Assembly (NCBI GenBank): GCA_964398415.1
Contig: CAYNOM010000002.1
Location: 4,292 to 44,068 of the forward strand
Source of the DNA: an uncultured Polyangiales bacterium
GTDB lineage: Bacteria; Myxococcota_A; Polyangia; Polyangiales; DASUME01
Length of the DNA stretch: 39,777 nucleotides
Reading direction: 5' to 3'
Shown: positions 5,950 to 36,872 of the stretch, piece after piece
How positions within the stretch are numbered: the first letter of the stretch is position 1
Layout: the number at the start of each line of letters is the position of its first letter
The notes under the pieces: model-generated
Seen by the model: the letters and a program-made list of their open reading frames with translations, nothing else
Databases searched by the model: none
Told to the model about the DNA's origin: nothing
Translations under genes and position numbers: made by a program

Positions 5950-6690
5950 TCACCAATGAAGCAGGTGGCGCCCACGGAAGCGATCTTCGAGGATCGCTTG
6001 GGCTTCGACACGCATGCCGATGGCCTCGAACGTGCCCGTCGCTGCGCCGAGCAGATGCGATTCGATGTAGAAGTACTCTTCCGTCATCGTCACGACCGCG
6101 CTGCGCTCGCCAGGGAACTCGAGGTCCCAATGACCGAAGCTGTAGCTCTGCCGTCTGCCCGCTGCGCCCTGTTGGAGCAGCCGCTTCGGATCGTGAGACA
6201 GAAACCGCAACAACGTGCGGCCCAGGATGCTCTCCGCGAACGCCACCGCGTTGCGCCGGCCGATCTCGAACATGCCGTCGTGCACGCGCTCTGGCCCCAA
6301 CAAGAGCCCGCCCGCAATCGCGAGCCGCACCAAGTACTCGCTCGCGGGCTGCCAGGCGATGGCGCTGACGCGCTCAGGAAACAGATGTCGATAGGGCTCG
6401 ACGCGGCCTTCTCGGGTCAGAACGGCCTCGATGCTGCGAAAGTATAACCCCCGCACCTTGGCCGACGGCGGCACGAGTGGCAGCCGCTCGGTGAGATCAC
6501 AGTAGCGGCTCACCTCTTCGATCGCGCGTGTCCGTTCCACCCTCTGCACGGCGGAACGATAGCCGAATGTGTGACGGAGTGCCTTGGTTGGGCGGCGAAA
6601 GCCAGAGCGGCGAGCGTACTCAGCGTGGCGCAGCTCACTGAAACGCGACTCTATGCGGCGTAGGGACTTGATCCCGCGGCGAGGGGACAC
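5950..6690 (-). CDS. DUF2378 / TIGR02265 (Myxococcus paralogous family)-like protein
   Basis: C-terminal ~190 aa (VRGLYFRSIEAVL...YLVRLAIAGG...GRRNAVAFAESILGRTLL...HLLGAATGTFEAIG) resembles the myxobacterial DUF2378 family from memory. Good GC3. The true start is probably downstream of 6690 (non-ATG), because only 31 bp separate it from the divergent AraC gene. Confidence 0.55.
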   Translation of the reverse strand: MSPRRGIKSLRRIESRFSELRHAEYARRSGFRRPTKALRHTFGYRSAVQRVERTRAIEEVSRYCDLTERLPLVPPSAKVRGLYFRSIEAVLTREGRVEPYRHLFPERVSAIAWQPASEYLVRLAIAGGLLLGPERVHDGMFEIGRRNAVAFAESILGRTLLRFLSHDPKRLLQQGAAGRRQSYSFGHWDLEFPGERSAVVTMTEEYFYIESHLLGAATGTFEAIGMRVEAQAILEDRFRGRHLLHW

Positions 6691-18071: not shown

Positions 18072-18259
18072 GGTCACGCCCTTTCGTGGCCCGCACGGGA
18101 CGGGCATTGTCTGTAATACAACCTATGCACCATGACGCGATGCGCAATGGGGCACACCCGTCTTTCTTGGCGTGAGGGGGCGGCCTGCCCGCATTTGTCC
18201 CGCTTTCCGCGGCCTGGAAATGATGTTAGTGAGTAATCACTACAGTTGTGGAGGATCCG

Positions 18260-25098: not shown

Positions 25099-25698
25099 AT
25101 GGCTCGGCGCGGGAGTAAGCTGCGGCCCTTGCTTGCCGAGGACTCCGTGGGCGCGCACGTCTACCCATTGCCGTTCGATGACACCGAGCACGCCGAGTTG
25201 CAGCGCGCCCTGGGGTGTCGATCCGTGGATGCTTTGCTCGGGTTCATGACCGCGCTCGTGAGCTTGCCCGAGGTGATCCCCACGGGAGCCTGGCTCGGCG
25301 AGCTGCTCAAGGACGCAGACCTCTCCGATGGGCCGCACATCGAGCGCGTCGCTTCGCACCTCGCGCGGCTCAACAACTTGATCGCGAGCGCGCTGAGCTT
25401 CTCCGAGATCGAGCGCTTCTGTCCGGCTGCGAGCGATGAGCCAGCCTGTCGTGCTTGGGCCCAGGGCTATCTCGACGTCATCGATCAGATCGACCTCGAG
25501 GGTGAGAGTGATGAGGTCCACGAGGACGTGGTGGCGCTGTCGTCGGTGGCGTTGCGCGTCGACGACGCGTTGCTCGCGCCCGAGCTCGAGGGCATGACGC
25601 CCGAGGCCTATCGTGCGGCGAGTCGCAAGGAGCTCGCGGCCATCGCCGCAGAGCTGCACCAGACGTGGCACAAGCGGCGCGCCGGACGGCGTCGCTAA
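25099..25698 (+). CDS. UPF0149 (YecA/YgfB N-terminal-like) family protein
   Basis: Pattern LLGFMTALVSLPEVIPTGAWLGELL...CRAWAQGYL resembles UPF0149 from memory. Coding-like GC3. Confidence 0.6.
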   Translation: MARRGSKLRPLLAEDSVGAHVYPLPFDDTEHAELQRALGCRSVDALLGFMTALVSLPEVIPTGAWLGELLKDADLSDGPHIERVASHLARLNNLIASALSFSEIERFCPAASDEPACRAWAQGYLDVIDQIDLEGESDEVHEDVVALSSVALRVDDALLAPELEGMTPEAYRAASRKELAAIAAELHQTWHKRRAGRRR

Positions 25699-25768
25699 AT
25701 CCGCTTCGTGCTTGGTTGGCGCGAGATCCCTCGATAAGGTGATCCGAGGGACAGGGCCAAGGGGGACG

Positions 25769-27061
25769 ATGGTGGCAGAGCGAGCCGACGAGGAGCTGTT
25801 GCCGGGACGGGCGGCAGAGCCCGATCGCTTCGAATTCCGGGGCGAGATCGCCTGCGGGGGCATGGGCAGCATCTACGACGTCGTCGATCGCACCTTGCGT
25901 CGCCGCCTGGCCATGAAGGTGCTGCATCCGCTGATGGCGGGCAGCGCCACCGAGCTCAACACCTTCGTGCGCGAGGCGCGACGCACGGCCAAGCTCGAGC
26001 ACCCGAGCATCGTGCCCGTGCACGACCTCTTCGCCGATCAGGCGAGCGAGAGCGCTTCGTTCGTGATGAAGTTCGTCGAGGGCGAGACCCTCTCGGCGTG
26101 GATTCAGCGCGAAGGGACGGCCGGCGGGATCCGCGGGCGCACGCTGGAGCGCGCGCTGCAGATCATCACCAAGGTGTGTGATGCCGTCGAGTTCGCCCAC
26201 AGTCGCGAGGTCTTGCACCTCGATTTGAAGCCCGACAACGTGATGATCGGCGAGCACGGCGAGGTGTACCTGATGGATTGGGGCATCTCCGTCGACTGCG
26301 AGCGCAACGCCGAAGGGCGGCTCGTGCCCCGCCTCGAGCGGCCCGGGGCGCGCGGCACACTCAGCCACATGGCGCCCGAGCAGCTCGACATGCTGCTGGC
26401 GCGCGTCGATGAGCGCGCCGACATCTACGGCCTCGGCGGGCTGCTCTACGAGGTGCTCACGGGTCGGGCGCCGTTCGTGCCCACTGGAGCTCCCGAAGAC
26501 CTCTTGCGTCTGCGCGAGCATCGGGTGCCGGCGCCCGAGGACGTGGCTCCGAGCCACGCCCTGCCGCCCGGCCTCGTGGCCATCGCCATGCGCTGTCTCG
26601 CCTTCGAGCGCGACGCGCGCTACCCGAGCGTGGGCGCGCTCAAGGTCGACCTCGAGAGCTTTCTGCGCGGCGGTGGCTGGTTTCAGACGAAGGCCTTCGC
26701 CGCCTCGGAAGACTTGGTGCGGGAGGGAGAGAAGGGCGACGCCGCCTACATTCTCGTCGAGGGCGAGTGCGACATCATCAAGGGCCACGGCGAGCACGCG
26801 CGCGTGGTGGGGCGCATCGGAGCGGGCGAAATCACCGGCGAGACCGCCTTGCTCGCGACAGGCACTCGCACCGCAACCGTGCGTGCGGTGACTTTCGTGC
26901 GGGTGCTCGTGGTGACGCGCGAGACGCTGGAGCGCGAGCTCGAGGGGCGCGGCTGGCTCGAAACCCTGGTACGCGCCCTGGCGCGCCGCTTCGCCGAGGC
27001 AGACAACGAGCGCACGAACCTGCGCGAGCAGCTCAGGCAACGTGGCTCGATCCCAGGCTAG
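25769..27061 (+). CDS. Ser/Thr protein kinase fused to a C-terminal cyclic-nucleotide-binding domain
   Basis: Internal ATG 25769 after AAGGGGGA. GGMGSIYDV, AMKVL, HLDLKPDNVMI, MDWGIS, HMAPEQ. The C-terminal cNMP-like region reads FAASEDLVREGEKGDAAYILVEGEC...GEITGETALL...RTATVRA. Confidence 0.9.
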   Translation: MVAERADEELLPGRAAEPDRFEFRGEIACGGMGSIYDVVDRTLRRRLAMKVLHPLMAGSATELNTFVREARRTAKLEHPSIVPVHDLFADQASESASFVMKFVEGETLSAWIQREGTAGGIRGRTLERALQIITKVCDAVEFAHSREVLHLDLKPDNVMIGEHGEVYLMDWGISVDCERNAEGRLVPRLERPGARGTLSHMAPEQLDMLLARVDERADIYGLGGLLYEVLTGRAPFVPTGAPEDLLRLREHRVPAPEDVAPSHALPPGLVAIAMRCLAFERDARYPSVGALKVDLESFLRGGGWFQTKAFAASEDLVREGEKGDAAYILVEGECDIIKGHGEHARVVGRIGAGEITGETALLATGTRTATVRAVTFVRVLVVTRETLERELEGRGWLETLVRALARRFAEADNERTNLREQLRQRGSIPG

Positions 27062-27433: not shown

Positions 27434-28105
27434 TCACGGGGGCGGTGCGACAGACGCGGTCGGGCAGACGGAGTTTCGCGCGCATCGCGCGTGCTCGAAC
27501 AGCGCCTCGAACACCGAGCGCACGTCTTCGAAGGCCCGCACAGCGCCCTGCCGCGCGCTCTCCCGCAGGGGCATGGCGTCTAGTCTCTGATCGAGCTCGT
27601 GACGAAAGCGCTGAAAGCGAGCCATGGTCTCCTTACCGTGTCCCCTGAAGTAGCGCGTGCTCCCGTCATCGAGCGCGAGACGAGCCGAGATCATGGGATA
27701 GAGCATGGCTGAGCCCAGTGCCGAGCCTTCGAGCACGTAGAGCCGACCGAGCAGGCTGGCCTCATCGAGCAGGCTCGTGTCTACGGTGCAGGCGCGGGCG
27801 ATCGCGGCGCGGAGCGACCTCGGCAGGCTGTGGGTGGCGCATCCGAGCGCCGCAAGATCCTGGTCCGCGAGCGCACTCTTGCGGGGCGTGCTGAGCAGAT
27901 GGGAGAGGCCCTTGGCTTCGAGCGCCCACTCGAGGTGACGATGGAGCTCCGCGTAGGCGCACAAGAGCTCGGCGTAGCTCGTGCGCGAGATCTCGCCCTT
28001 CGCGAGCAGCTCGGCGAACGCCGTCGACTCGGTCTGCTTGTGCTCGACCTGGGTCACCGCCTTGAGCCAAAGCGAGGCCTGCGGGATCAATGGGTGGAGT
28101 TCCAT
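27434..28105 (-). CDS. Heme oxygenase family protein (last gene of the operon)
   Basis: Internal ATG 28105 (MELHPLIPQ). LKAVTQVEHKQTESTAF matches the proximal-His helix (HO-1 LKEATKEVHTQAENAEF, from memory). LYVLEGSALGS matches the bacterial HO distal-helix motif YVLEGS.LGG. 223 aa. Confidence 0.75.
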   Translation of the reverse strand: MELHPLIPQASLWLKAVTQVEHKQTESTAFAELLAKGEISRTSYAELLCAYAELHRHLEWALEAKGLSHLLSTPRKSALADQDLAALGCATHSLPRSLRAAIARACTVDTSLLDEASLLGRLYVLEGSALGSAMLYPMISARLALDDGSTRYFRGHGKETMARFQRFRHELDQRLDAMPLRESARQGAVRAFEDVRSVFEALFEHARCARNSVCPTASVAPPP

Positions 28106-28554
28106 CTGCGAAGCTCCTCGATGAAGGCGTGAAGGTAAGGCTCGAAGGCGTAGGTGTCGGCCTCGTTCAACACCTCGGCCATGGCCTCGCGCAGGGTCTC
28201 GAAGCTCGACACGAGCGCGGCTGGCTCGATCAGTTGGCACAGCTGCTCGGCGACCCATTCGGCGTGGGCCTCCACGAAGTGCGTGAGGTCGGCCCGCACG
28301 TGCGCGAGCGCCACGCGCCTGAGCATGTGGCGCAGCTCTTCGATCCCCTCGGCACGGCCACCGTGAAGACGTCTCACGTCACCGAGGCGCTCGAGCGCGC
28401 GCACGTAGATGCGCTCTTCGGCAGCTTGCATGCGGCGCGCGGCAGACAGACGTTGGCCCATACCGGTTGCATACTCGCGTAACGCGTCGACCTCCTGGTC
28501 GCTCAAGAAGCGCCCCTCGGCGTTGACGATCATCGATCTGAGCTCGGTGTTCAT
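28087..28554 (-). CDS. Phycobiliprotein-like (phycobilisome protein family, globin fold) protein A
   Basis: ATG 28554 overlaps the kinase stop as ATGA. MNTELRSMIVNAEGRFLSDQEVDAL...RLSAARRMQAAEERI aligns by eye with phycocyanin/allophycocyanin N-termini (..AD.QGRFLS..EL...). C-terminal YLHAFIEEL resembles YIDYAINAL. 155 aa. Confidence 0.6.
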   Translation of the reverse strand: MNTELRSMIVNAEGRFLSDQEVDALREYATGMGQRLSAARRMQAAEERIYVRALERLGDVRRLHGGRAEGIEELRHMLRRVALAHVRADLTHFVEAHAEWVAEQLCQLIEPAALVSSFETLREAMAEVLNEADTYAFEPYLHAFIEELRRWNSTH

Positions 28555-30146
28555 GCGTCTCCCCCTGAAAATGGAATGCGTTCGACGCGTCCCTGTGCGT
28601 CGACCCACGCGAGGCTCGAGGCATTGGCCGCGAGCCCCACGATGGGTTGATCGAGTGCGGTGCGTGCCCGTGCGCCCGTACGCACGTCGAAACTGTAGAG
28701 CGAGCCTTCCTTCTCGATGCCGTACAGGCGCTGCCCGTCGAAGGCTGAGGGTCGCGCGGGCAAGCGCACGCTCCTCGTGCCCGCGGCGCTGAGCAGCAGC
28801 ACACGGCCTTCGGCGCCAGACACATCTGCCACCAAGATCTGGCCGTCATCGTGGACCCACAGGCGCTGCACGTGTGCATCGACAGCGATCTTGCGAGCTT
28901 CGAACATCACGCATGCGCCCCCACCCGCAACCCCCGCGAGTGCGAGCGCGCCGCTCGCGCCGACTGCGAGGGCGGTGATGCGCTGGCCGAGCTCGACTGG
29001 AGCACGCTGCTCCTCTCTACCGCCCGCGATGCGGGCCTTGCCCTCCGTGGCCACTGCGATCTCACCACGCGGACCGAGCGCGATGCACGCACCAGGTCGG
29101 ACGCGCATGCCACGCACGGGGCCGTGGGGGCCATGGACGCGCACTTCGTTGCCATGGCGCAGCGCGAAGTACTCTCCATGGGCCAGCATTTCGTCTACGT
29201 CGCTGTGGGCTTCCTGCGCGTCGCCGCGCGGCCCATGACGCGAGACATCGCGGCCCGTGCGCAGCAGCAATGCGTAAGGCGTGAGGGCCAGCTCCTCGAC
29301 GCCGGGTGCGTAGAGCGGCCAACGCTCGTTCACGAACTCGGAGGCTTCGTCACGCAGCGCGAGCGTCAGGGCGGAGATCCACGCGTCCACCGTATCGAAG
29401 CGATCTTCGGGCCGTTTGGCCAAGCTCCGCTCGAGCAAGAGGCGCATGCGCGGTGGCAGCCACTCAGGAAGCACCGGCTCGCGCTCCAGGTGCGCCAGCA
29501 TGATTTGGGCCGGCGTGCCCGCGAAAGGTCTTTGCCCGCACAGGATCTCGTAGACCACGACGCCCAGCGAGTAGACGTCCACGCGTCTGTCGTAGGAGTC
29601 GTAGAACTGCTCAGGCGCCATGTACGCAGGAGAGCCGCTGTTGCTACGCGTGGCCGCCTCCACGCCGAGCGCAGAGATGCCGAAGTCGGTGACTTTGGCG
29701 CGCAGGCCGCCGCCGCTGCGCGTGACGAGGATGTTCTCGGGCTTCAAGTCGCGGTGCAGCACGTTGCGCGCATGGGCGTACGCCACGCCCGCCGCGGCCT
29801 CGCGCACGAGCTCGAGCGTGGCCACTACCTCTGTGCCGAGGTTGATGCGCTCACGCAGGGAGCCGAGCTCCATGTATTCGTACACGAGGTAGCGCAGGCC
29901 CTGCTCCATGAACACCGAATCCGCGCGTACCACCGCGGGATGGGCGAGGTCGAAGACGGCCCCGATCTCACGCATGAAGGTGTCTTCGCCCGCGAGCGCC
30001 GAGAACTCCTTGAGCGCCACACGACGCTGGGCCTTGACGTCGTGCGCGAGGTAGACGCGTCCGTGGGCGCCTTGTCCGAGCACGCGCTCGGTGGCGTAAC
30101 GCCCGCCGAGTAAGCGTCTCTCTCTCTCGTAGCCCGCGAGATTCAA
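28551..30146 (-). CDS. Ser/Thr protein kinase with ~250-aa beta-rich C-terminal domain
   Basis: GQGAHGRVYLA, VALKEF, HRDLKPENILV, DFGIS, AYMAPEQ. The proposed TTG start at 30146 overlaps the upstream stop as TTGA, with AAGGGGG 10 nt upstream. The ORF start 30482 and ATG 30257 would overlap the V4R gene extensively. Confidence 0.9.
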   Translation of the reverse strand: MNLAGYERERRLLGGRYATERVLGQGAHGRVYLAHDVKAQRRVALKEFSALAGEDTFMREIGAVFDLAHPAVVRADSVFMEQGLRYLVYEYMELGSLRERINLGTEVVATLELVREAAAGVAYAHARNVLHRDLKPENILVTRSGGGLRAKVTDFGISALGVEAATRSNSGSPAYMAPEQFYDSYDRRVDVYSLGVVVYEILCGQRPFAGTPAQIMLAHLEREPVLPEWLPPRMRLLLERSLAKRPEDRFDTVDAWISALTLALRDEASEFVNERWPLYAPGVEELALTPYALLLRTGRDVSRHGPRGDAQEAHSDVDEMLAHGEYFALRHGNEVRVHGPHGPVRGMRVRPGACIALGPRGEIAVATEGKARIAGGREEQRAPVELGQRITALAVGASGALALAGVAGGGACVMFEARKIAVDAHVQRLWVHDDGQILVADVSGAEGRVLLLSAAGTRSVRLPARPSAFDGQRLYGIEKEGSLYSFDVRTGARARTALDQPIVGLAANASSLAWVDAQGRVERIPFSGGDA

Positions 30147-30802
30147 GACGCTGAGACCCCCTTCAGCTTGTCTAGGATCTCGCTTGCCGGGCGCTTCTGC
30201 TTCACCCACGCGGACGCTGGTGCGAGCCGGTCTGTCATTCCAACTACGAACTTGCATGACTCGTCTCCCTGGCTTCGACACGCGATCTCGACACAGCTCA
30301 GATCCCGCCCCGAGATGTGTGAGATCAGAGATCCCAAGACACCGGCGACGAGGTGATCCGAGGGCCTGTCGAGCTTGCCTACACTCGCGCTGTAGGGGGC
30401 TCCGCTCACGTCGGCGACGATGAAGCCCTGCGCTGCGAGGTCGAAGGACAGCTCGAGATTGCCCCAGCCGAGCAGGCCCCACGAGCGGCGCAGGCTCTGC
30501 ACGTACATGGCGAGCGGGATTTCGTGGAGCGCCCGTCCATGGAAGGCGCGCACCTCATCCGAGTGTCTTTGGGCGTAGCGCGCCCCCCACCACTTGCCGA
30601 CGCTGTAGAGGACCACGGGAGCGGCGCTGCCCGTCTCTTCTTCGAGGCCCTTGTGAAGGCCCTGGATCAGCTGTTCTGGAATCGCGAGCATGCGCGTCCC
30701 CATCGGGCTTCGGATCACGCCCTTTCTGACGTCGAGCTTCAGGTAGCTCTCGGCGCGGTAGGGATTGGTGGCCATGCTCGCGGGATCGTCGGGGCGGTTC
30801 AT
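30143..30802 (-). CDS. V4R (4-vinyl reductase-type small-molecule-binding) domain protein 1
   Basis: The ATG overlaps the upstream stop as ATGA (30799-30802). C-terminal V4R signature HLVAGVLGSLISHISGRDLSCVEIACRSQGDESCKFVVG. Paralogous to 31650-32294. Confidence 0.7.
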   Translation of the reverse strand: MNRPDDPASMATNPYRAESYLKLDVRKGVIRSPMGTRMLAIPEQLIQGLHKGLEEETGSAAPVVLYSVGKWWGARYAQRHSDEVRAFHGRALHEIPLAMYVQSLRRSWGLLGWGNLELSFDLAAQGFIVADVSGAPYSASVGKLDRPSDHLVAGVLGSLISHISGRDLSCVEIACRSQGDESCKFVVGMTDRLAPASAWVKQKRPASEILDKLKGVSAS

Positions 30803-31290
30803 GCGTCACTCCTTTCGTGCTCGAGCTCGGTGATGATGAGCTCGATGTAGGGAGCGAGGCGTCTTCCGCGCTCCGCTCCGAGATGCGTGATCGCGGCGTC
30901 GACCAGTCGTTTGTAGCCGTAGATCATCGGTTCTTTCGGCATCAGCGCGACCACGATGGTCTTCATCCAGATCGCGAGCTTGTCGCGGACGAAGTCGGGG
31001 TCGGACAGCAGCATGCCCAGCACCGCGTAGCGGTACACGAAGGTCATGTCGCGGCGCCCGCGCAGCTCGCTGTCTGCTCCGTGATTGCGCGCGAGCTCGG
31101 GGTGACGAGCCATCAGCGCCGAGAGCGCGTCATCGATGATGAGCTTCTCCTGGGCTTCGAGCTCGCGAACCGAGGGCAACGCGACGAGCAAGCTCTCCGT
31201 GTAGGCACGAATCTCGGCCTCTTCGGTCTCCGTGAAGTAGCGACTCTGGGCGCCGTAGAGCGCCTTTCTGACATCGGCCTGCATACTCAT
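30799..31290 (-). CDS. Phycobiliprotein-like (globin fold) protein B
   Basis: Start ATG 31290 or 31284, with GAGGAG directly upstream. ...ALYGAQSRYFTETEEAEIRAY...ELEAQEKLIIDDALSAL parallels protein A and phycobiliprotein N-termini. GRRDMTFVYRYAVLGML aligns by eye with the C-A-R-D-x3-Y-L-R chromophore-site helix. ~162 aa. Confidence 0.55.
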   Translation of the reverse strand: MSMQADVRKALYGAQSRYFTETEEAEIRAYTESLLVALPSVRELEAQEKLIIDDALSALMARHPELARNHGADSELRGRRDMTFVYRYAVLGMLLSDPDFVRDKLAIWMKTIVVALMPKEPMIYGYKRLVDAAITHLGAERGRRLAPYIELIITELEHERSDA

Positions 31291-31294
31291 CTCC

Positions 31295-31636
31295 TCACGT
31301 CCAGTTGAAGGCGCCGAACACGGCATCCACCGTTTGACCCTGCTGATGATCGGTCGGGCCATCGGCCTTACCCGTCCAATTCACGGTCGAGAACACGAGA
31401 CCCACGGGTCTTGCGGCATCGGCGAGGCGCACGCGCTTCTGATCGTCGGGCAAGACGCCCCAGCGCACGTGGCGCGCGAACACCGAGCCTGCCGGGCGCG
31501 CCATCAAGGGGTCGACCCTGTGGGGCTCGATGCGCGGGGGAAGGCTTCTCGTCGTGCGCGCGAGGCGACTCGTCTCGGGCCTTTGCGGCTCGTCGCTGCG
31601 CGCGGGAGGCGGAAGGGTTGCGGCGTGCATGCTCAT
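31295..31636 (-). CDS. Orphan 113-aa protein
   Basis: GAGGAAAG SD 3 nt before ATG 31636. GC-rich third positions. The stop lies 4 nt before the next start. Pro/Arg-rich N-terminal half, beta-like C-terminal half with VNWT/FNWT. No family recognised. Confidence 0.45.
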   Translation of the reverse strand: MSMHAATLPPPARSDEPQRPETSRLARTTRSLPPRIEPHRVDPLMARPAGSVFARHVRWGVLPDDQKRVRLADAARPVGLVFSTVNWTGKADGPTDHQQGQTVDAVFGAFNWT

Positions 31637-31649
31637 GGACTTTCCTCGC

Positions 31650-32294
31650 TCACAGCCGCCCGATGACGTCGTTGGCGCTCGCGCCCTCTTCGAGCCAGAA
31701 CTGCACGGCGTTGATCTTCTGCTCGGCGCCGATGACGAAGCGGCAGTAGGTCGCGCCCATGGCGTAACACTGGATTTCGATGCCGCTCAGATCGCGCTTG
31801 GCGAGGTGCGTCAGGGCGCCCGCCAGCATGCCGGCGTAGAGGTGACACACGGGCTTTCCCACTTCGCCTAGGGTCTTCGCTACGGCTGAGTCGAAGAGGT
31901 TCACGAGGATGAGGCCCTGATCGCGCTTGCCATCGAGGTCGACCTCCCATGCGCCCCAGCCCATGGTCTGCAGCGGCCACCACCACTCCTCGAGCACGAA
32001 CTTCACGTTCATCTGCCGCATGTCGCGTCCAAACTCGCGCAGCATGTTGCTCTCGAAGCGCTTGAGGTCGGTGAGCCCCCACTGAAAGCCGCAGCGATAG
32101 AGGACTACGGCCGAGGCATCGCCCACCTCCTGCTCGAGGCCCGCCTGCAGGCCAACGATGAAATCCTCCGAAGCGAAGAACGCGAGCTCGTCGTTTCGAG
32201 TGCGCACGCTTCCGCCCTTCGGGTCGAAGCGGAAGTAGTCTTCGAGGGTGAAGTAGTTGTGCTTCTTGGGTTGCTGTCCGATGATCACGCTCAC
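31650..32294 (-). CDS. V4R domain protein 2
   Basis: GTG start 32294, with GGGGGA 4 nt upstream. V4R signature KPVCHLYAGMLAGALTHLAKRDLSGIEIQCYAMGATYCRFVIG. Confidence 0.7.
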   Translation of the reverse strand: MSVIIGQQPKKHNYFTLEDYFRFDPKGGSVRTRNDELAFFASEDFIVGLQAGLEQEVGDASAVVLYRCGFQWGLTDLKRFESNMLREFGRDMRQMNVKFVLEEWWWPLQTMGWGAWEVDLDGKRDQGLILVNLFDSAVAKTLGEVGKPVCHLYAGMLAGALTHLAKRDLSGIEIQCYAMGATYCRFVIGAEQKINAVQFWLEEGASANDVIGRL

Positions 32295-32304
32295 GGTTTC
32301 CCCC

Positions 32305-32784
32305 TCACGCGTCTCGCGTGTCCTTCATGACCCTCTGCAGATCGGCTTCGACCTGCATCAGCTGCTGCGCGGTGCTGCGCGTGATGATCTTGCCGGCCTG
32401 AACCAGGACGCGGCCATCGACGGGGTGCAGCACGCGTAGCTCGGCGCGACGGCCCACGAGCTCGTCGATGTCCGCGTGTTGGGCCACGTACAAACCTTCA
32501 GGCAGCCTGATGACCACGCCGTCACGCAGCACCTTGGCCTGGCAGGCAAGTCGAGACTCGGAGGTTGCCTCGCCGATCAGCGATAGCGTGCGCTCTTCGC
32601 GCTTCGTGCGCGGCGTGATGCAGTTGTCTCCACTCTGCACGTAGACGTGGCAGGTGGCACAGATGCCGCGTCCACCGCAGGCCATCTTCACCGGCACGCG
32701 CTCCGCAAGCAGAGCTTGAAGCACGTTGGCTTCGGTCTTCACTTCCACGATCTTTGCGGTGCCCGCGAACTGGACGGTCTTCAT
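32305..32784 (-). CDS. [2Fe-2S] ferredoxin, adrenodoxin-type spacing, with ~60-aa C-terminal extension
   Basis: C-x5-C-x2-C-x35-C pattern (MACGGRGICATCHV...SRLACQA). The ATG overlaps the upstream stop as ATGA (32781-32784). Confidence 0.85.
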   Translation of the reverse strand: MKTVQFAGTAKIVEVKTEANVLQALLAERVPVKMACGGRGICATCHVYVQSGDNCITPRTKREERTLSLIGEATSESRLACQAKVLRDGVVIRLPEGLYVAQHADIDELVGRRAELRVLHPVDGRVLVQAGKIITRSTAQQLMQVEADLQRVMKDTRDA

Positions 32785-33701
32785 CGTCGTGCCTCCCCCG
32801 GTTTCGAATCGACAGCGTGGCCCTGCGCGTACGTCTCAGACTCGGCGGCGGCGCTACGCGAAAGCGCATCGAGATCGAGATCGCGGATCGACGGATCGAG
32901 GTCCGACACCAGGGCGATGAAAGCCTCGCACCAGCGCCGCACCATGACGCTCGCGCGTGAGAGCTCGAGCTCATCGGGGCGGCTGCAACGCACGCTGCCA
33001 TCGAGGTCGACCTCGAACGGATCCAGCGTTCCGTCGCTACACACGGCCTTGCGGGCGCGATTCAGATAGTTGCGCCGAACTGCACCACCGAGGTTCTTAC
33101 CCGCGTGCGCCGACAGGGCGGCCACCTGTGCGAGCAGACCCTGCGCGTCGAGCTCGCTCGGCCCATCGCTCGTGCGCGTGAACGCGAGAGGTGCCTCGCG
33201 TGGGGCATTCGATCTCGCGAGCAGCGCCGACGGAGAGAGCGGCTCGAGCTTGAGCGACGACGGTGGCGGTACGGTGGCTACGTCTTCGGGCTCGGGTGCA
33301 GGGACAGTGATGGTGGCGGGGCGTGACGCGGGTGAGGACGACCGAAGCGGGCCCCCGTCGCCACTGAGAGCCGATCCCACCGCATCGACGAGCGACGGTA
33401 CCGACAGGGCGACCCGGCTGACCACGGCGTGGAGGTGTGCTCCCTCCCTGACGCGCAGCGCGACGCTGCCCTTGCCGGCTCTGAGCCATACGATGCGGCA
33501 CGTGGCCGTCTCCACCTCCAGAAAACGCGCATCGGGCTGACGCTCGAAGAGCTGACTCAGGATGGGTAGGGCCTGAGAGAGCGCATCGGCATGGGCGTCG
33601 AGGCGCGCGCAGTAGGTGGAGCCATCCTCTGCGAAGAAGGCGACGCCGTCGACGTCTGGAACAGCAAGCATTCCGCTCAGGGTGTCGATCAATCCGAGCA
33701 T
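32781..33701 (-). CDS. Roadblock/LC7 (MglB-like) N-terminal domain protein with Pro/Ser-rich linker and C-terminal domain
   Basis: N-terminal MLGLIDTLSGMLAVPDVDGVAFFAEDGS...CRIVWLRAGKGSVALRVREGAHL fits the Roadblock/LC7 pattern by eye. The start overlaps the upstream gene by 13 nt. Confidence 0.5.
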   Translation of the reverse strand: MLGLIDTLSGMLAVPDVDGVAFFAEDGSTYCARLDAHADALSQALPILSQLFERQPDARFLEVETATCRIVWLRAGKGSVALRVREGAHLHAVVSRVALSVPSLVDAVGSALSGDGGPLRSSSPASRPATITVPAPEPEDVATVPPPSSLKLEPLSPSALLARSNAPREAPLAFTRTSDGPSELDAQGLLAQVAALSAHAGKNLGGAVRRNYLNRARKAVCSDGTLDPFEVDLDGSVRCSRPDELELSRASVMVRRWCEAFIALVSDLDPSIRDLDLDALSRSAAAESETYAQGHAVDSKPGEARR

Positions 33702-34276
33702 GTGAGCCCCTTCAGGGTGCTCTCGAGCAGGTCACGACTGGGCGGTCTGCCGACGTCGGTGAGGCACACCGCTGCGTCGCGGCCGCGGGGACGCAGCACG
33801 GCCATCACCCGGTCGTCGCACAGGCTGGCCGAAAGCGCCTCGGTCTCGCCCAGGGCGTGCGCCGTGGCGGCCGCGATCTGCTGAGTCAGGTTCATCGCAT
33901 CGAGCCAACGCGGTGAGAGCGAGAGCTGAGAGAGCTCTTGTCGCGAGGGCGGCGCACTCAACGTGAAGCTGCACAGGATGCCCGGCGCGATGGGGCGAAC
34001 CGTGGGCGTTGCGCTCGTATCGATGTGGATCTCCCGTGACATGACGCTCCGTAGGGCGTGAAGGTGGGTGGCATTCAGCGCGCGCGCCAAGCGTGCTGAC
34101 TTGCGCGGGCCGTCCCGGCTCGCGTCCTCGTCGAGCTCGTGCCGGGTCGTAGACAGCGTGATGCCGTCTTGTTGAACGGTGGTGACGAGGTGTGCAGGGT
34201 CGCTCTCACTCGCCACGGTCTTGACCTCGAGCGTGCGATCGGAAAGCTCGACGCTGGACTGCCTGTGCATGCTCAT
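33689..34276 (-). CDS. Hypothetical protein, possible divergent Roadblock-like C-terminal half
   Basis: The ATG overlaps the GTPase stop as ATGA (34273-34276). Coding-like GC3. The C-terminal AAATAHALGETEALSASLCDDRVMAVLRPRGRDAAVCLTD weakly resembles the second half of a Roadblock fold. Confidence 0.45.
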   Translation of the reverse strand: MSMHRQSSVELSDRTLEVKTVASESDPAHLVTTVQQDGITLSTTRHELDEDASRDGPRKSARLARALNATHLHALRSVMSREIHIDTSATPTVRPIAPGILCSFTLSAPPSRQELSQLSLSPRWLDAMNLTQQIAAATAHALGETEALSASLCDDRVMAVLRPRGRDAAVCLTDVGRPPSRDLLESTLKGLTCSD

Positions 34277-35397
34277 GCTCCCGCCGAGCGGAACCAGCCG
34301 CGTCGCTTGCGCGTGTCGTTCGACAGCTCTTCGAGGGACTCCTGTAGATTTTGGAGGTCGCGATGCAGTGCACCCTGACCTGCCCGCACCTGGGCATCGA
34401 CCTCGCGGAGGCTGTCACTCAGATCGTGCAGGTCGGCCAGCTCCTTGCGAATGTCCGCGATCAGCTCCCCCCGCAGCAACGGAAGTTGGTCGAGCCGCTC
34501 CACGACACTTTGGTGCAGGCGGTCGTTGGCGACGGGCACCACGGCCACGGCTTCCTTCAGGGTCTCTCCCGTCTGGTGAATGAGCTTTCGAGTTCCGATG
34601 GTCTGCTCTTCGAGCGCGCGTCGTAGACTACGCATGTCGCGCTCACGGGCTTCGGCGTCGACCTTCAGCGCGTCGATGGTCTGGTGGGCAGCGTCGACGC
34701 GTGCGTGCAGGGCAACGAAGCGTTCTGCCAGGCTGTCGAGGGCGCCCACGATGCGATCGAGCTTGCTCGAGGTGCGCTCCCCTTCGAGTCTCTGTCTCAG
34801 GCCACTCGTCTGGGGATCCTGAAATGCTCGGCGCGCCGCCTGTTCGTAAGCGCACTGCAGCGCAGCGACGACGCCCTGTCCGGTGCTCGCCACGCTCTCG
34901 AAGCACAACGCGTCGGGCATGCCGATGCTGCGCAGAAGCTCCTCACGCGAGCTCGGGTCTGGGTCGTCGGCATGGTTGAGCTGTACCACCACCGGCAGCG
35001 TGCTGAGGGTTTGACCCTGGCGACTCAGATCATCGAACAAGCGCTGCGCCGCCTGCTCGTTGGCCGGGCCATGCGCCTTGCCTGAGTGCAGCACCAGCAC
35101 GACCGCATCGGCGCCCTGCAACAGACGCTCGGTGGTGGTCCGCTGCCGAGCCTCGCCCACGAGACCCCGCACGCGGACCAGCACTTGTGCCCCTTCGAGC
35201 GCATCGCGTTGATTGGGCACCCAATCAAACATCGCCGTGCGATCGCCGTTCTGGTTGAGCGAGATAAGCTCGGTGGCTCTGCCGGCCTCGGTGGCGCGCC
35301 GCACCGCTTCGAGTGCCGCGAGCTTGCCCGCGCCCTCGGGCCCCAAGTAGGCAATACACAGCTCCACCGAGCCGCGCTCCACATCCACGCGTGGCAT
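34273..35397 (-). CDS. MglA-like small GTPase domain (degenerate G motifs) fused to ~190-aa coiled-coil tail; first gene of the operon
   Basis: ATG 35397, with GAGGGGGG 4 nt upstream. ELCIAYLGPEGAGKLAAL / LISLNQNGDRTAMFDWVP / GADAVVLVLHSG / LPVVVQLNHADDP / ASTGQGV are collinear with M. xanthus MglA (IVYYGPGLCGKTTNL / LISLSTETDRTLFFDFLP / GVDGVVFVADSQ / IPYVIQYNKRDLP / APTGVGV, from memory). Confidence 0.75.
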   Translation of the reverse strand: MPRVDVERGSVELCIAYLGPEGAGKLAALEAVRRATEAGRATELISLNQNGDRTAMFDWVPNQRDALEGAQVLVRVRGLVGEARQRTTTERLLQGADAVVLVLHSGKAHGPANEQAAQRLFDDLSRQGQTLSTLPVVVQLNHADDPDPSSREELLRSIGMPDALCFESVASTGQGVVAALQCAYEQAARRAFQDPQTSGLRQRLEGERTSSKLDRIVGALDSLAERFVALHARVDAAHQTIDALKVDAEARERDMRSLRRALEEQTIGTRKLIHQTGETLKEAVAVVPVANDRLHQSVVERLDQLPLLRGELIADIRKELADLHDLSDSLREVDAQVRAGQGALHRDLQNLQESLEELSNDTRKRRGWFRSAGA

Positions 35398-35801
35398 GGT
35401 TCCCCCCTCATGCGCGCCCATCTGCCGGGCGTCTATCCCGTAACAGGGATGTCCTAAGTTAAACAGCAGCCATGGACAAAGTCTATGTTTGCCTAGGGTG
35501 TGGACCGATTTTGGTGGCAGGCCTTGAGGCGACCAGCGCTGGCATGCGCTGTGGGATCACACCACTTATTCTGAGTAGTTGCGATGCCATGAGTGGGCGC
35601 GCATGCAGTCTTGCGCAGCTGCTCTGGCGCTCACCGTGGGTCACTGTTTGTTCATTGTTTGGTTCGGGTAGGGTGGTTGTGCAGGGCAACCACGCGGGCG
35701 CGCCTTGTAGGCCGTGACCCGCGTGTGCACTGGGCGGCTTGGGGGCTTGTCCCCATAGTTGCGTCTCGAGGCGCTGAGCCTTCGTGAGAAGGAGAGGACG
35801 A
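35398..35801. promoter_or_regulatory. ~400-bp divergent intergenic region between the 11-gene operon and the LLM oxidoreductase gene
   Basis: Longest non-coding gap in the window and visibly less GC-rich than its surroundings. Contains a TGTTTG direct repeat 11 bp apart (35645-35650, 35656-35661) and a 7-bp-stem hairpin/palindrome gtggttg-N7-caaccac (35673-35693). No confident -35/-10 or sigma-54 element identified. Confidence 0.4.
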
Positions 35802-36872
35802 GTGCAAAAACCGCGTGTGGGAGTCGTCGCCTATTGGAAGGGCTACGACCGCAAGATCTATCTCAAGGCCGCGAAGCTGGCGGACGAGCTCGGCTACGAG
35901 TCGTTCTGGGTGCCCGAGGCCTGGGGCTACGACGTGTTTCCTCTACTCACGGAGATGGCGAAGGAGACGAAGCGCATCAAGCTCGGCACGGGCATCGTCA
36001 ACGTGTACAGCCGTTCGCCGGGCCTCATCGCCATGAGCTCCGCCACGCTCGACGAGATCAGCGACGGCCGCTTCATCCTCGGCATCGGCACGAGCGCCCA
36101 TCGTGTGATCGAGGGCTTTCACGGCGTGCCCTACGACAAGCCCCTGAGCCGAACGCGAGACGTGCTGAGGATCGTGCGCGGTTTGCTGAACGGCGAGTCG
36201 CTCGATCGGGTGGGTGCGGAGATGGTGCGCTATCGCCCCTTCAAGCTCGCCACGAAAGCCGGCCAACATCGGGTGCCGATCTACGTCGCAGCGCTCAAAC
36301 AGAAGTCGATCGAGAGCGTCGGCGAGCTCGCTGATGGTTGGATGCCCGCCTTTTGGCCTTACCAAGAGCTTTCGCGTGGCCTCACGTTCTTGCACAACGG
36401 TGCACGTCGTGCGGGGCGAGATCCTGCGAGTCTCGAGGTGGCGCTCGTGACGGCGGCGATTCCCATCGGGAAAAAGCGCGCGATGGTGATGGCCAAGGAC
36501 ATCATCTCCTTCTACGTCGGCGGCATGGGAGACTTCTATCGCGAGCTGCTCAGCGAGTCTGGCTTCGCCGACGACTGCGACCGCATCGCCCAGCTCTACC
36601 AAAACCACGAGACGCGCTCGAAGGCGAGGGATGCCGTGCCCGATGCGCTGGTCGAGGCGATGACGGCCTCGGGGGATCCCCTGTCTTGCCGCGCCAAGCT
36701 ACGCGAGCTTTCCGCGCTCGGCGTGACGCAGCCGTTGCTCGGCCTGCCCGCAGCCGCGTCGTGGCCTGCGATCGCGGCCTATCTCTACGCCATGGCGCCC
36801 GGGCGTACGCCCAGCCTCTTGCAGCTCATGACCACGGGTGCCGTGCGCGTCGCCACGCAGCTCGAGAGCTAG
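35802..36872 (+). CDS. Luciferase-like monooxygenase (LLM) class flavin/F420-dependent oxidoreductase
   Basis: AAGGAGAGG SD before GTG 35802. [46 protein letters not shown] are typical LLM motifs. Confidence 0.9.

What the first reader, a model, noticed from the sequence alone, without database searches (positions are those of the whole stretch)
34273..35397. MglA-like GTPase with degenerate nucleotide-binding motifs fused to a long coiled coil
Seen: the N-terminal ~185 aa are collinear with M. xanthus MglA (sequence recalled from memory), but key motifs differ. The P-loop GxxxxGK[ST] reads GPEGAGKL. The MglA TVPGQ switch-II region reads GLVGEA. The NKxD specificity motif reads NHAD. A ~190-aa heptad-like, charged helical tail follows (..LDSLAERFVALHARVDAAHQTIDALKVDAEARERDMRSLRRALEEQ...LQNLQESLEELS). 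MglA itself has no such tail. Inference: this may be a pseudo-GTPase or an altered-specificity NTPase acting as a scaffold or switch. It is probably regulated by the two downstream Roadblock-like proteins.
Basis: partly seen in the sequence, partly recalled or inferred. Interest (0 to 1): 0.65.

Follow-up and report, generated by a model that had tools for sequence, protein, structure and literature searches.

The report
Crippled MglA-type GTPase with coiled-coil tail
This soil-bacterium gene encodes a relative of the MglA molecular switch that has lost key catalytic residues yet is still kept by selection. It carries a helical tail and heads a conserved 11-gene operon for bilin-binding globins, so it may be a bacterial "pseudo-GTPase" wired to a sensing pathway of unknown function.

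Summary
Window 34273-35397 (-) encodes a 374-aa protein. Residues 1-190 are an MglA-type G domain: HMMER E 3e-17 to solved MglA, and the AlphaFold model matches MglA at TM 0.88-0.91. Residue numbering is identical to MglA, so the changes read T26L, T78G, P80V, Q82E and K142H. K25, R53, T54, G81, N141 and D144 remain. Residues 195-372 are two long heptad-bearing helices ending in RKRRGWFRSAGA.

Of the 150 nearest relatives among 1.8 billion proteins, almost all keep intact motifs. Three relatives share the decay, and two of them have lost the P-loop entirely. The four form one clade (198/200 bootstraps). dN/dS is 0.15, so this is not a dying gene.

The tail is not unique: 140 of 151 relatives carry extensions. 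The closest intact ones (GTPase, coiled coil, C-terminal KKGWWR) head the same operon in Myxococcota: G, A, B, 2Fe-2S ferredoxin, V4R, globin, V4R, Ser/Thr kinase, globin, heme oxygenase. This matches the published BBAG cluster, where no GTPase was reported.

Protein B has weak but consistent Roadblock similarity. Protein A is inconclusive.

Best reading: a catalytically dead or nucleotide-insensitive scaffold or adaptor in this pathway. That function is inferred, not shown.

The parts
34273..35397 (-). Gene for the 374-aa MglA-derived G domain plus coiled-coil protein ('G').
   Evidence: ORF and Shine-Dalgarno-like run. Identical to the called protein P0001. dN/dS 0.15 against orthologue L002.
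34828..35397 (-). G domain, aa 1-190, MglA fold.
   Evidence: phmmer E 3e-17 to MglA PDB chains. AlphaFold pLDDT >95. Foldseek 5ymx_A E 2.6e-19, TM 0.88.
35320..35343 (-). P-loop GPEGAGKL (aa 19-26). K25 is kept. The Mg-coordinating Thr26 is replaced by Leu.
   Evidence: Alignments. Coordinates. Role of Thr26 from PMC3199381.
35221..35247 (-). Switch I / beta2, GDRTAMFDW (aa 51-59). Arg53, Thr54 and Phe57 are kept. Phe59 is replaced by Trp.
   Evidence: Roles of R53, T54, F57 and F59 from PMC3199381.
35152..35166 (-). Switch II GLVGE (aa 78-82), against TVPGQ in MglA. The changes are T78G, P80V and catalytic Q82E. G81 is kept.
34966..34977 (-). G4 motif NHAD (aa 141-144), against NKRD in MglA. 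The change is K142H. N141 and D144 are kept.
34282..34815 (-). Helical tail, aa 195-372: two long helices (195-303 and 309-372). Heptad segments lie at aa 211-265 and 309-361. A variable, proline-containing middle part is deleted in orthologue P0002.
   Evidence: AlphaFold secondary structure. Periodicity test. Alignment of the four orthologues.
34276..34311 (-). C-terminal basic-aromatic motif RKRRGWFRSAGA (aa 363-374). It is shared by all four degenerate orthologues. It resembles the KK[GS]W[WF]R end of the intact-motif coiled-coil relatives.
33689..34276 (-). Protein A (195 aa). Its start overlaps the G stop codon (ATGA). It is a fast-evolving, syntenic partner of unknown fold. Roadblock-like status is inconclusive.
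   Evidence: Synteny. Reciprocal HMM hits, E 6e-6 and 1e-4. PDB profile best hit MglC, E 0.27.
32781..33701 (-). Protein B (306 aa). It has an N-terminal Roadblock/LC7-like domain (aa 1-110), a Pro-rich linker, and a conserved C-terminal domain (LGGxVRRNYL...) with no known relatives.
   Evidence: Profile against PDB: 10 of 14 hits are dynein roadblock chains, best E 0.014. Homologous to B of the canonical operons, E 4e-23. Alignment A8.
32305..32784 (-). 2Fe-2S ferredoxin-like protein (159 aa).
   Evidence: Pfam Fer2, E 4e-11. 79% identical to the L003 orthologue.
31650..32294 (-). V4R-domain protein (214 aa).
   Evidence: Pfam V4R, E 5e-19. 81% identical to the L003 orthologue.
31295..31636 (-). 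Small conserved protein (113 aa) ending ...VFGAFNWT.
   Evidence: No Pfam hit. 54% identical to the 111-aa gene at the same position in L003.
30799..31290 (-). Phycobiliprotein-like globin (BBAG-like), copy 1.
   Evidence: Pfam Phycobilisome, E 9e-17. Start placed by the L003 orthologue and an upstream Shine-Dalgarno-like run.
30143..30802 (-). Second V4R-domain protein (219 aa).
   Evidence: Pfam V4R, E 3.5e-10.
28551..30146 (-). Ser/Thr protein kinase. It has a conserved C-terminal region of about 270 aa with no Pfam hit.
   Evidence: Pfam Pkinase, E 3e-45. The TTG start overlaps the V4R stop codon. 51% identical to the L003 orthologue.
28087..28554 (-). Phycobiliprotein-like globin, copy 2.
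   Evidence: Pfam Phycobilisome, E 3e-9. 74% identical to the L003 orthologue.
27434..28105 (-). Heme oxygenase, the last gene of the operon.
   Evidence: Pfam Heme_oxygenase, E 2e-14.

Best explanation
The gene encodes an MglA-family small G domain that has lost the chemistry needed to hydrolyse GTP, fused directly to a helical coiled-coil tail of about 180 aa.

Lost residues: the Mg-coordinating Thr26 is now Leu. The catalytic Gln82 is now Glu. Switch II Thr78 and Pro80 are now Gly and Val. The base-stacking Lys142 is now His.

The tail ends in a short basic-aromatic motif.

The protein is the diverged orthologue of an intact-motif 'MglA-like GTPase + coiled coil + KKGWWR' protein. In Myxococcota that protein is the first gene of a translationally coupled operon. 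Two fast-evolving partner proteins follow, A and B; B starts with a Roadblock-like domain. After them come a 2Fe-2S ferredoxin, two V4R proteins, two bilin-binding-type globins, a Ser/Thr kinase and a heme oxygenase.

Shown here: the fold, the motif losses, their spread within one clade, purifying selection, and the operon and its conservation.

Inferred: in the ancestral system the G protein is a GTP/GDP switch, handled by the Roadblock-type partners as MglB handles MglA. In this lineage the switch has been frozen. The window's protein, which keeps K25, R53, T54, N141 and D144, may still hold a nucleotide but not turn it over. Its sister orthologues, which lack any P-loop, cannot bind one.

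On this reading the protein works as a constitutive adaptor. The G-domain face, with the retained beta2 aromatic residues F57 and W59, binds A and B. The coiled coil oligomerises or spaces the complex. The C-terminal basic-aromatic end tethers it, possibly to the membrane. The complex links the heme-oxygenase/globin/V4R/Fe-S sensing proteins to the kinase.
For: - Homology to MglA by sequence: E 3e-17.
- Homology to MglA by predicted structure: TM 0.88-0.91, rmsd 1.8-2.0 A, with MglA far ahead of Arf/Ras at about 1e-8.
- Residue-for-residue motif mapping with MglA numbering.
- Published roles of the residues (PMC3199381). Thr26 and Thr54 coordinate Mg. [quoted passage not shown] Q82A abolishes intrinsic and GAP-stimulated hydrolysis. 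Phe57 and Phe59 contact MglB.
- T26N, P80A, Q82A/R and K142A MglA alleles are non-functional in vivo (PMC3000849).
- Nearly all of the 150 nearest relatives keep all motifs. Only P0002, P0005 and P0006 share the decay and align full length. P0005 and P0006 have no GK[ST], no switch II Gln and no NKxD. P0002 has also lost Thr54.
- The four form a clade in 198 of 200 NJ bootstraps, on long branches.
- dN/dS is 0.15 overall, 0.14 for the G domain and 0.17 for the tail.
- The 11-gene order is the same in L003/L004, and partly in L005.
- The same order occurs behind intact-motif G proteins in L007/L008, L011, L012 and L013, all Myxococcota MAGs.
- A and B are homologous across both operon types.
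- B has Roadblock profile hits.
- G, A and B are 26-36% identical between the window and L003, while Fer2 and V4R are 79-81% identical. The trio is the fast-evolving part.
- Start and stop codons of G/A, A/B and B/Fer2 overlap.
- The tail is helical with heptad periodicity.
- The C-terminal motif is shared by 24 proteins.
Against: - No biochemistry exists. The window's protein keeps the P-loop Lys, the Arg finger, the switch I Thr and the N/D of G4.
- MglA nucleotide affinity was reported not to depend on Mg (PMC3199381). Nucleotide binding, and conceivably slow or partner-assisted hydrolysis with Glu82, therefore cannot be excluded.
- The Roadblock assignment of B rests on sub-threshold E-values. 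That of A is unproven.
- No structural model of the complex could be made.
- The NJ tree does not place the degenerate clade inside the coiled-coil family (88 of 200). Orthology rests on synteny, the A/B homology and the C-terminal motif.
- The membrane-tether role of the C-terminal motif and the functional link to the globin/V4R/kinase genes are inferred from gene order only.
Confidence: 0.6

Rival explanations
1. It is still a working GTP/GDP switch with unconventional chemistry. Nucleotide is held by K25, N141 and D144. Arg53 and Glu82 (as general base), or residues supplied by proteins A and B, catalyse hydrolysis. A/B act as GAP or GEF, as MglB does.
For: GxxxxGK, D52/R53/T54, G81, N141 and D144 are retained in the window's protein. 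The G domain is under strong purifying selection, dN/dS 0.14. MglA binds nucleotide independently of Mg (PMC3199381).
Against: The closest orthologue P0002 has also lost Thr54. The sister orthologues P0005 and P0006 occupy the same operon slot with no P-loop Lys, no G3 Gly-Gln and no NKxD, so the slot's function does not need nucleotide turnover. Q82A abolishes all hydrolysis in MglA. T26N, P80A and K142A alleles are dead in vivo.
Confidence: 0.2
2. It is an altered-specificity NTPase (for example ATP or XTP instead of GTP).
For: Only that the G4 motif reads NHAD rather than NKxD.
Against: The specificity-determining Asp144 and Asn141 are unchanged, and only the stacking Lys is replaced. The P-loop hydroxyl and the catalytic Gln are missing, which affects any NTP. 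The sister proteins lack the motif altogether.
Confidence: 0.04
3. It is a decaying, non-functional remnant (a pseudogene in the making) that is still annotated as an ORF.
For: Key motifs are lost. The clade sits on long branches. Identity to L003 is low, 32%, against about 80% for the neighbouring genes.
Against: The 374-codon frame is intact. dN/dS is 0.15 at dS 0.63. Four orthologues from separate metagenomes keep full length, the conserved tail core (ARERDxRxLRRAxxEQ...TRKL) and the C-terminal motif. Translational coupling to A is preserved.
Confidence: 0.03
4. The protein is mainly a structural or cytoskeletal coiled-coil protein, with the G-like head acting only as a dimerisation or localisation knob. 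Its position in front of the globin/V4R genes has no functional meaning.
For: The tail is long and helical, with weak hits to SMC, EzrA and other coiled-coil families. Canonical relatives have 300-1100-aa tails.
Against: The gene order G-A-B-Fer2-V4R-globin-V4R-kinase-globin-HO recurs in at least seven separate contigs, counting the window (the window, L003, L005, L007, L011, L012, L013). These span deep divergence, with G-domain identity about 35%, and have overlapping start and stop codons.
Confidence: 0.1

Closest known systems
MglA (Myxococcus xanthus / Thermus thermophilus; PDB 5ymx, 6hjh, 3t12, 3t1q)
   Same: Same G-domain fold, with identical residue numbering through aa 1-190. The intrinsic Arg53, the switch I Thr54, the beta2 aromatic residues and the bacterial MglA-type insertion are all present. 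It is the best sequence and structure match.
   Different: MglA is a single domain of about 195 aa with GxxxxGKT, TVPGQ and NKxD, and it is a proven GTPase regulated by MglB. This protein has T26L, T78G, P80V, Q82E and K142H. It also has a 180-aa coiled-coil tail, and its genomic context is not the mglBA motility locus.
Intact-motif 'MglA-like GTPase + coiled coil + C-terminal KK[GS]W[WF]R' proteins of Myxococcota (P0007-P0010, P0013 and others; loci L007, L011-L013). No published name was found.
   Same: Same architecture and the same C-terminal basic-aromatic ending. Same first position in the same operon, followed by homologous A and B proteins and then Fer2, V4R, globin, kinase and HO.
   Different: These keep GAGLSGKT, DRT, TVPGQ and NKRD. 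They have a Pro/Ala/Ser-rich linker and much longer tails (protein lengths 490-1290 aa). Tail sequence similarity to the window's tail is marginal, best E 4e-6.
BBAG / pre-PcyA gene clusters (Rockwell et al. 2023, PMC10151467) and the cyanobacterial slr0144-slr0149 cluster
   Same: The downstream half of the operon has the defining set: an Fe-S protein, two V4R proteins, one or two phycobiliprotein-like globins and a heme oxygenase. It occurs in Myxococcota, as do the pre-3 clusters.
   Different: No ferredoxin-dependent bilin reductase occurs in the window, or downstream of HO in L003 and L013. The paper and a 2026 preprint do not mention a GTPase, MglA or Roadblock component.
Actinobacterial conservons (CvnA-D) and other MglA-family signalling modules (Wuichet and Sogaard-Andersen 2014, PMC4316618)
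   Same: An MglA-type G protein is encoded with a Roadblock-type protein, an uncharacterised protein and a kinase, in a signalling rather than motility context.
   Different: Conservon GTPases are single-domain with intact motifs, and the kinase is a histidine kinase. No Pfam DUF742 or Robl_LC7 hit reaches significance here.
Eukaryotic pseudoGTPases (for example CENP-M, Rnd/RhoH-type proteins). This comparison is from my own knowledge and was not tested here.
   Same: A G-domain fold is retained under selection while the catalytic and/or nucleotide-binding motifs are lost. The proteins are used as constitutive binding modules.
   Different: Different subfamily and a different domain of life. 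No bacterial MglA-family pseudoGTPase turned up in my literature search.

Membership tests
MglA family (Ras superfamily, group 1) | G-domain sequence and fold closest to MglA. | tested here: met
   phmmer E 3e-17. Foldseek top 14 hits are all MglA, TM 0.87-0.91.
MglA family (Ras superfamily, group 1) | P-loop GxxxxGK[ST] with a Mg-coordinating Thr26. | tested here: not met
   The motif reads GPEGAGKL. Leu is at position 26.
MglA family (Ras superfamily, group 1) | Intrinsic Arg finger Arg53 and switch I Thr54. | tested here: met
   GDRT at aa 51-54. Thr54 is lost in orthologues P0002, P0005 and P0006.
MglA family (Ras superfamily, group 1) | G3 motif TxxGQ with the catalytic Gln82. | tested here: not met
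   The motif reads GLVGE: T78G, P80V, Q82E.
MglA family (Ras superfamily, group 1) | G4 motif NKxD. | tested here: not met
   The motif reads NHAD. N141 and D144 are kept and K142 is His.
MglA family (Ras superfamily, group 1) | GTP binding and MglB-stimulated hydrolysis. | not testable with these tools
   Needs purified protein.
Pseudo-GTPase (functional class) | G fold retained, catalytic motifs lost, gene maintained by selection. | tested here: met
   Fold. Motifs. dN/dS 0.15. The clade contains members with no P-loop.
Pseudo-GTPase (functional class) | Absence of GTP hydrolysis and/or nucleotide binding. | not testable with these tools
   Inferred from the T26L and Q82E changes and from published MglA mutant data.
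MglA-like coiled-coil family with C-terminal KKGWWR-type motif (unnamed) | N-terminal MglA-like G domain, a long helical tail and a C-terminal basic-aromatic motif. | tested here: met
MglA-like coiled-coil family with C-terminal KKGWWR-type motif (unnamed) | First gene of the G-A-B-Fer2-V4R-globin-V4R-STK-globin-HO operon. | tested here: met
Coiled coil | Long helices with heptad hydrophobic periodicity. | tested here: met
   Helices 195-303 and 309-372. Period 3.50, p = 0.0005, and period 3.55, p = 0.036.
Coiled coil | Oligomerisation into a supercoil. | not testable with these tools
   Only a monomer model was available.
Roadblock/LC7 (MglB-like) - protein B, window 32781-33701 | Significant match to a Roadblock/LC7 profile or structure. 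| tested here: inconclusive
   A 7-sequence profile against PDB gives 10 of 14 hits to dynein roadblock chains, full domain, best E 0.014. Pfam Robl_LC7 reaches E 0.12 in 2 of 7 members, below threshold.
Roadblock/LC7 (MglB-like) - protein A, window 33689-34276 | Significant match to a Roadblock/LC7 profile or structure. | tested here: inconclusive
   The best PDB profile hit is MglC 7ct3 at E 0.27. There is no Pfam hit. hhalign against the N-terminal domain of B gives E 0.02 and probability 2%. The AlphaFold model has pLDDT 40.
BBAG / pre-PcyA cluster (PMC10151467) | An Fe-S protein, two V4R proteins and phycobiliprotein-like globin(s), with or without heme oxygenase. | tested here: met
   Pfam Fer2, two V4R, two Phycobilisome and Heme_oxygenase.
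BBAG / pre-PcyA cluster (PMC10151467) | An associated ferredoxin-dependent bilin reductase (pre-PcyA). | tested here: not met
   No Fe_bilin_red hit in any likely gene of the window.

The most novel reading that the evidence does not exclude
The G-A-B trio (MglA-like GTPase with coiled coil, plus two partner proteins) is the previously unnoticed regulatory or output module of the myxobacterial globin (BBAG) / V4R / Fe-S / heme-oxygenase cluster. That would make the cluster a small-GTPase-coupled bilin, heme or redox (possibly light) sensing pathway that also uses a Ser/Thr kinase. The window's lineage would then record a bacterial small GTPase being converted step by step into a nucleotide-independent pseudoGTPase while its partners co-evolve rapidly. 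The steps are intact, then T26L/Q82E/K142H, then no P-loop at all.
Probability: 0.35. Interest if true: 0.8.

Novelty: new variant of a known kind. Interest (0 to 1): 0.62.

Why it matters
- Pseudo-GTPases are well documented in eukaryotes. I found no description of one in the bacterial MglA family. Here a graded series exists in nature: intact, partly degenerate and fully degenerate proteins at the same operon position. That makes it directly testable how a switch becomes a scaffold.
- The function of the BBAG / V4R / Fe-S clusters is an open question. These clusters are the proposed ancestors of the phycobiliprotein and PcyA systems. Finding that in Myxococcota they are headed by a small-GTPase module and contain a Ser/Thr kinase argues that they are signalling systems, and it gives handles for testing this: interaction assays, phosphorylation targets and localisation.
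- The wider family of MglA-like proteins with coiled-coil tails and a KKGWWR-type end appears undescribed. So does a second group with tail-anchor-like ends. Both fell outside the single-domain survey of prokaryotic Ras-like GTPases.

Tried and rejected
- The word-indexed homology search (5.8 billion proteins) found only one true orthologue for G and none for A or B. The exhaustive representative search was needed.
- A genome-contig scan with the window's protein found nothing. A second scan with the canonical coiled-coil alignment gave the Myxococcota loci.
- Pfam and NCBIfam give no significant G-domain hit for the window's protein. They give only marginal coiled-coil families.
The single-sequence model of A was unusable at pLDDT 40, so no fold search was run on it.
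- I tried to harvest MglB/Roadblock references from neighbours of canonical mglA-like genes in 70 loci. This failed: the recurrent neighbour is PilZ-like, not Roadblock.
- The C-terminal domain of B and all of A have no detectable relatives in Pfam or PDB.
- P0003 (an MglA-like domain with a histidine kinase) and P0004 (a frameshifted canonical mglA in a chemotaxis locus) were rejected as irrelevant.
- The NJ tree could not place the degenerate clade within the coiled-coil family, probably because of long branches.
- An HMM of the tails finds only marginal similarity to canonical tails.
- The pseudogene and altered-specificity readings were rejected (see the rival explanations).
Full report
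**1. What is at the coordinates**

Window 34273-35397 on the minus strand is a 374-codon gene. The ATG at 35397 follows a GAGGGGGGA run and matches an independently called protein, P0001. A longer ORF from 35421 is unlikely to be the real start. GC3 is 0.77 for the gene as a whole, and the neighbouring genes are similar. The next gene starts at 34276 and overlaps the stop codon (ATGA).

**2. The G domain**

phmmer against all PDB sequences gives Thermus MglA 3t12 at E 3.3e-17 over residues 7-189. It gives Myxococcus MglA (5ymx, 6hjh, 6h17) at about 9e-17. Nothing else scores below 0.02.

I built an AlphaFold2 model from a 147-sequence alignment. Mean pLDDT is 86.7, and the G domain is mostly above 95. 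Its 14 best Foldseek matches in the PDB are all MglA structures, with E 2.6e-19 to 5e-14, TM 0.87-0.91 and rmsd 1.8-2.8 A. Arf, Arl and Ras follow at about 1e-8.

The alignment is gap-free enough that residue numbers coincide with MglA.
- P-loop: G19-P-E-G-A-G-K25-L26. MglA has T26.
- Switch I: G51-D-R53-T54.
- Beta2: F57 and W59. MglA has F57 and F59.
- Switch II: G78-L-V80-G81-E82. MglA has T78-V-P80-G81-Q82.
- G4: N141-H142-A-D144. MglA has N-K-x-D.

Published work gives these residues their meaning.
- Thr26 and Thr54 coordinate Mg (PMC3199381).
- Arg53 is the intrinsic arginine finger.
[quoted passage not shown] Q82A abolishes both intrinsic and MglB-stimulated hydrolysis.
- Phe57 and Phe59 contact MglB after the beta2 screw.
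- T26N, P80A, Q82A/R and K142A alleles fail to support motility in M. xanthus (PMC3000849).

**3. Is the degeneracy unusual?**

An exhaustive phmmer search of 1.84 billion representative proteins returned 2928 hits at E <= 1e-3. In the best 150, the G1, G2, G3 and G4 motifs are almost uniformly GxxxxGKT, DRT, TVPGQ and NKRD.

Only three proteins align over the full length and share the decay.
- P0002: 73-81% identity, from a soil-type Logan contig. It has the same GxxGAGKL, GLVGE and NHAD, and switch I Thr54 is replaced by Ile.
- P0005: 359 aa.
- P0006: 384 aa.

In P0005 and P0006 the P-loop reads GAHPTTSA and GSDTTLLS. Switch II reads AMLCAPQ and TEVGTRS. G4 reads LDVDD and LESDG. They have no GK[ST], no catalytic Gln and no NKxD.

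The four proteins form one clade in 198 of 200 neighbour-joining bootstraps, on long branches.

The gene is not decaying. Against its orthologue on L002, dS is 0.63 and dN/dS is 0.15. The G domain gives 0.14 and the tail 0.17.

**4. The tail**

AlphaFold predicts helices 195-303 and 309-372. Hydrophobic periodicity peaks at 3.50 residues for aa 309-372 (p = 0.0005 against 2000 shuffles). It peaks at 3.55 for aa 195-303 (p = 0.036). The strongest heptad windows are aa 211-266 and 309-364.

The proline-containing middle part (about aa 281-309) is missing in P0002. P0002 instead has a 25-aa insertion earlier in the tail. Tail length is therefore plastic.

Two elements are conserved in all four orthologues.
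- A core, ARERDxRxLRRAxxEQ...TRKL.
- The extreme C-terminus, RKRRGWFRSAGA / QKRRGFWRSAGT.

Pfam and NCBIfam give only marginal coiled-coil hits, to CEP85, SMC and EzrA.

**5. The tail is not a peculiarity of this protein**

Of the 151 closest MglA-like proteins, 140 are at least 250 aa long (median 462). Twenty-four end in a basic-aromatic motif (KKGWWR, KKSWWR, KKGWFR and similar). Another 29 end in a hydrophobic, tail-anchor-like stretch.

The top intact-motif hits are P0007-P0010, P0013 and P0014. They have GAGLSGKT, TVPGQ and QLNKRDL, then a Pro/Ala/Ser-rich linker, then 300-1100 aa of helical repeats, then KK[GS]W[WF]R.

The 2014 survey of prokaryotic Ras-like GTPases dealt with single-domain proteins. 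In the passages I searched it does not describe such fusions.

**6. Genomic context**

The gene heads an operon on the minus strand. Genes and Pfam evidence are; start coordinates for globin 1, the kinase, globin 2 and heme oxygenase are.

| Gene | Window coordinates |
|---|---|
| G | 34273-35397 |
| A, 195 aa | 33689-34276 |
| B, 306 aa | 32781-33701 |
| 2Fe-2S ferredoxin | 32305-32784 |
| V4R | 31650-32294 |
| 113-aa protein | 31295-31636 |
| Phycobiliprotein-like globin 1 | 30799-31290 |
| V4R | 30143-30802 |
| Ser/Thr kinase | 28551-30146 |
| Phycobiliprotein-like globin 2 | 28087-28554 |
| Heme oxygenase | 27434-28105 |

Several junctions overlap by 4-13 nt.

The same order occurs behind P0005 on a 127-kb JGI contig (L003) and on a Logan contig (L004). 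It also occurs, as far as the contig reaches, behind P0006 (L005).

The same order also follows intact-motif G proteins in Myxococcota MAGs. These are L007/L008/L009 (P0008), L011, L012 (Polyangiaceae) and L013.

HMMs built from the A and B proteins of the canonical operons find the window's B at E 4e-23 and its A at E 6e-6. Both are the top non-self hits among 4046 ORFs, and the reverse searches agree.

Between the window and L003, Fer2 and V4R are 79-81% identical. G, A and B are only 32, 26 and 36% identical. The trio evolves together and fast.

The window's source is soil metagenomes. DUF2378 and the many Ser/Thr kinases in the window fit Myxococcota.

**7. What the downstream genes are**

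An Fe-S protein, two V4R proteins, one or two phycobiliprotein-like globins and a heme oxygenase is the cluster that Rockwell et al. (2023, PMC10151467) found around pre-PcyA bilin reductases. Its globins (BBAGs) bind bilins. The pre-3 type is largely myxobacterial. A related cluster, slr0144-slr0149, exists in cyanobacteria.

That paper, and a 2026 preprint on pre-PcyA enzymes, contain no occurrence of 'GTPase', 'MglA' or 'Roadblock'.

The window contains no bilin reductase. In L003 and L013 the operon also ends at heme oxygenase. So the only bilin the operon can make by itself is biliverdin. This last point is inference.

**8. Are A and B Roadblock-like?**

Single-sequence and three-sequence searches found nothing.

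A 7-sequence profile of B's N-terminal 110 residues hits 14 PDB sequences at E <= 10. Ten of them are dynein light chain roadblock/LC7 proteins, aligned over the whole domain. The best E-values are 0.014, 0.085 and 0.15. Pfam Robl_LC7 appears at E 0.12 in 2 of 7 members. I rate this as weak but consistent support.

For A, the best profile hit is MglC, itself a Roadblock protein, at E 0.27 over 50 residues. Pfam finds nothing. hhalign of A against B's domain gives E 0.02 but probability 2%. The single-sequence AlphaFold model has pLDDT 40. A is inconclusive.

B's conserved C-terminal domain (LGGxVRRNYL...) has no detectable relatives.

**9. Mechanism**

Shown:
- An MglA fold.
- Loss of the Mg-coordinating hydroxyl, the catalytic Gln, two switch II residues and the G4 Lys.
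- Further loss in sister lineages.
- Purifying selection.
- A conserved, coupled operon with homologous partners.

Inferred, with about 0.6 confidence overall. The ancestral protein is a GTP/GDP switch whose partners A and B bind the switch I / beta2 face, as MglB binds MglA. In this clade the cycle has been abandoned and the protein is a constitutive adaptor.

The window's version keeps K25, R53, T54, N141 and D144. MglA's nucleotide affinity is reported to be Mg-independent. So the window's version may still hold a nucleotide without turning it over. The P0005 and P0006 versions cannot. The retained F57 and W59 fit a preserved partner interface.

The coiled coil would oligomerise or space the complex. 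The basic-aromatic C-terminus may tether it to the membrane. Relatives that end in hydrophobic anchors make this plausible, but it is untested.

The link to the globin, V4R, Fe-S and kinase proteins rests on gene order only.

**10. Rivals**

- A still-active unconventional GTPase: 0.2.
- A structural coiled-coil protein with no functional tie to the operon: 0.1.
- An altered-specificity NTPase: 0.04. The specificity Asp is unchanged.
- A dying gene: 0.03. This is contradicted by dN/dS and by four intact orthologues.

**11. Novelty and verdict**

The protein is a new variant of a known kind: an MglA-family G protein that has become, or is becoming, a pseudo-GTPase. It sits inside an apparently undescribed family of MglA-like coiled-coil proteins. 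That family heads the myxobacterial BBAG/V4R/Fe-S/kinase/heme-oxygenase operon.

Interest is 0.62. The catalytic state and the pathway role need experiments. The graded natural series and the tie to an open question about BBAG clusters make those experiments straightforward to design.

Noticed in passing
window 27434-32784 (-): A complete BBAG-type cluster: 2Fe-2S ferredoxin, V4R, globin, V4R, Ser/Thr kinase, globin and heme oxygenase. No ferredoxin-dependent bilin reductase occurs anywhere in the 39.8-kb window. The same holds in L003 and L013. On its own the operon could make only biliverdin.
   Followed up: partly
window 31295-31636 (-); L003:10752-11087; L007:6784-7101: A small conserved protein (113 aa) with no Pfam hit, ending ...VFGAFNWT. 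In the intact-GTPase operons a gene of about 110 aa ending ...FAAFGW sits between B and the ferredoxin. L013 has one at both positions.
   Followed up: partly
window 28551-30146 (-): The operon's Ser/Thr kinase has a conserved C-terminal region of about 270 aa with no Pfam match. It is 51% identical overall to the L003 orthologue.
   Followed up: no
window 34351-34626 (+): A 91-aa antisense ORF inside the coiled-coil coding region has GC3 of 0.82. It is probably an artefact of the repetitive codon pattern and not a gene.
   Followed up: no
L007:458-3280, L008:78-2900: In the intact-GTPase operon of P0008, the G gene is preceded by a sigma54-type response regulator, a PatA_N-domain protein and a PilZ protein. 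The window instead has a divergently oriented luciferase-like monooxygenase at 35784-36872.
   Followed up: no
loci L020-L089 (Desulfobacterales, Nitrospirota and other MAGs): In 43 loci the most recurrent neighbour of the MglA-like genes is a small PilZ-like protein rather than an MglB/Roadblock gene. Separately, 29 of the 151 nearest MglA-like proteins end in a hydrophobic, tail-anchor-like segment.
   Followed up: partly
window 25613-27061 (+), 18248-19717 (+), 5950-6690 (-): Other genes in the window: a Ser/Thr kinase fused to a cyclic-nucleotide-binding domain, an RPE65-type carotenoid oxygenase, and a DUF2378 protein (a myxobacterial paralogous family). These are consistent with a Myxococcota origin.
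   Followed up: no
L001:8001-8804: P0004 is a canonical mglA broken by a frameshift, in a noisy 234-kb ENA contig. It lies inside a chemotaxis (che) and TPR gene region. It is unrelated to the finding.
   Followed up: no
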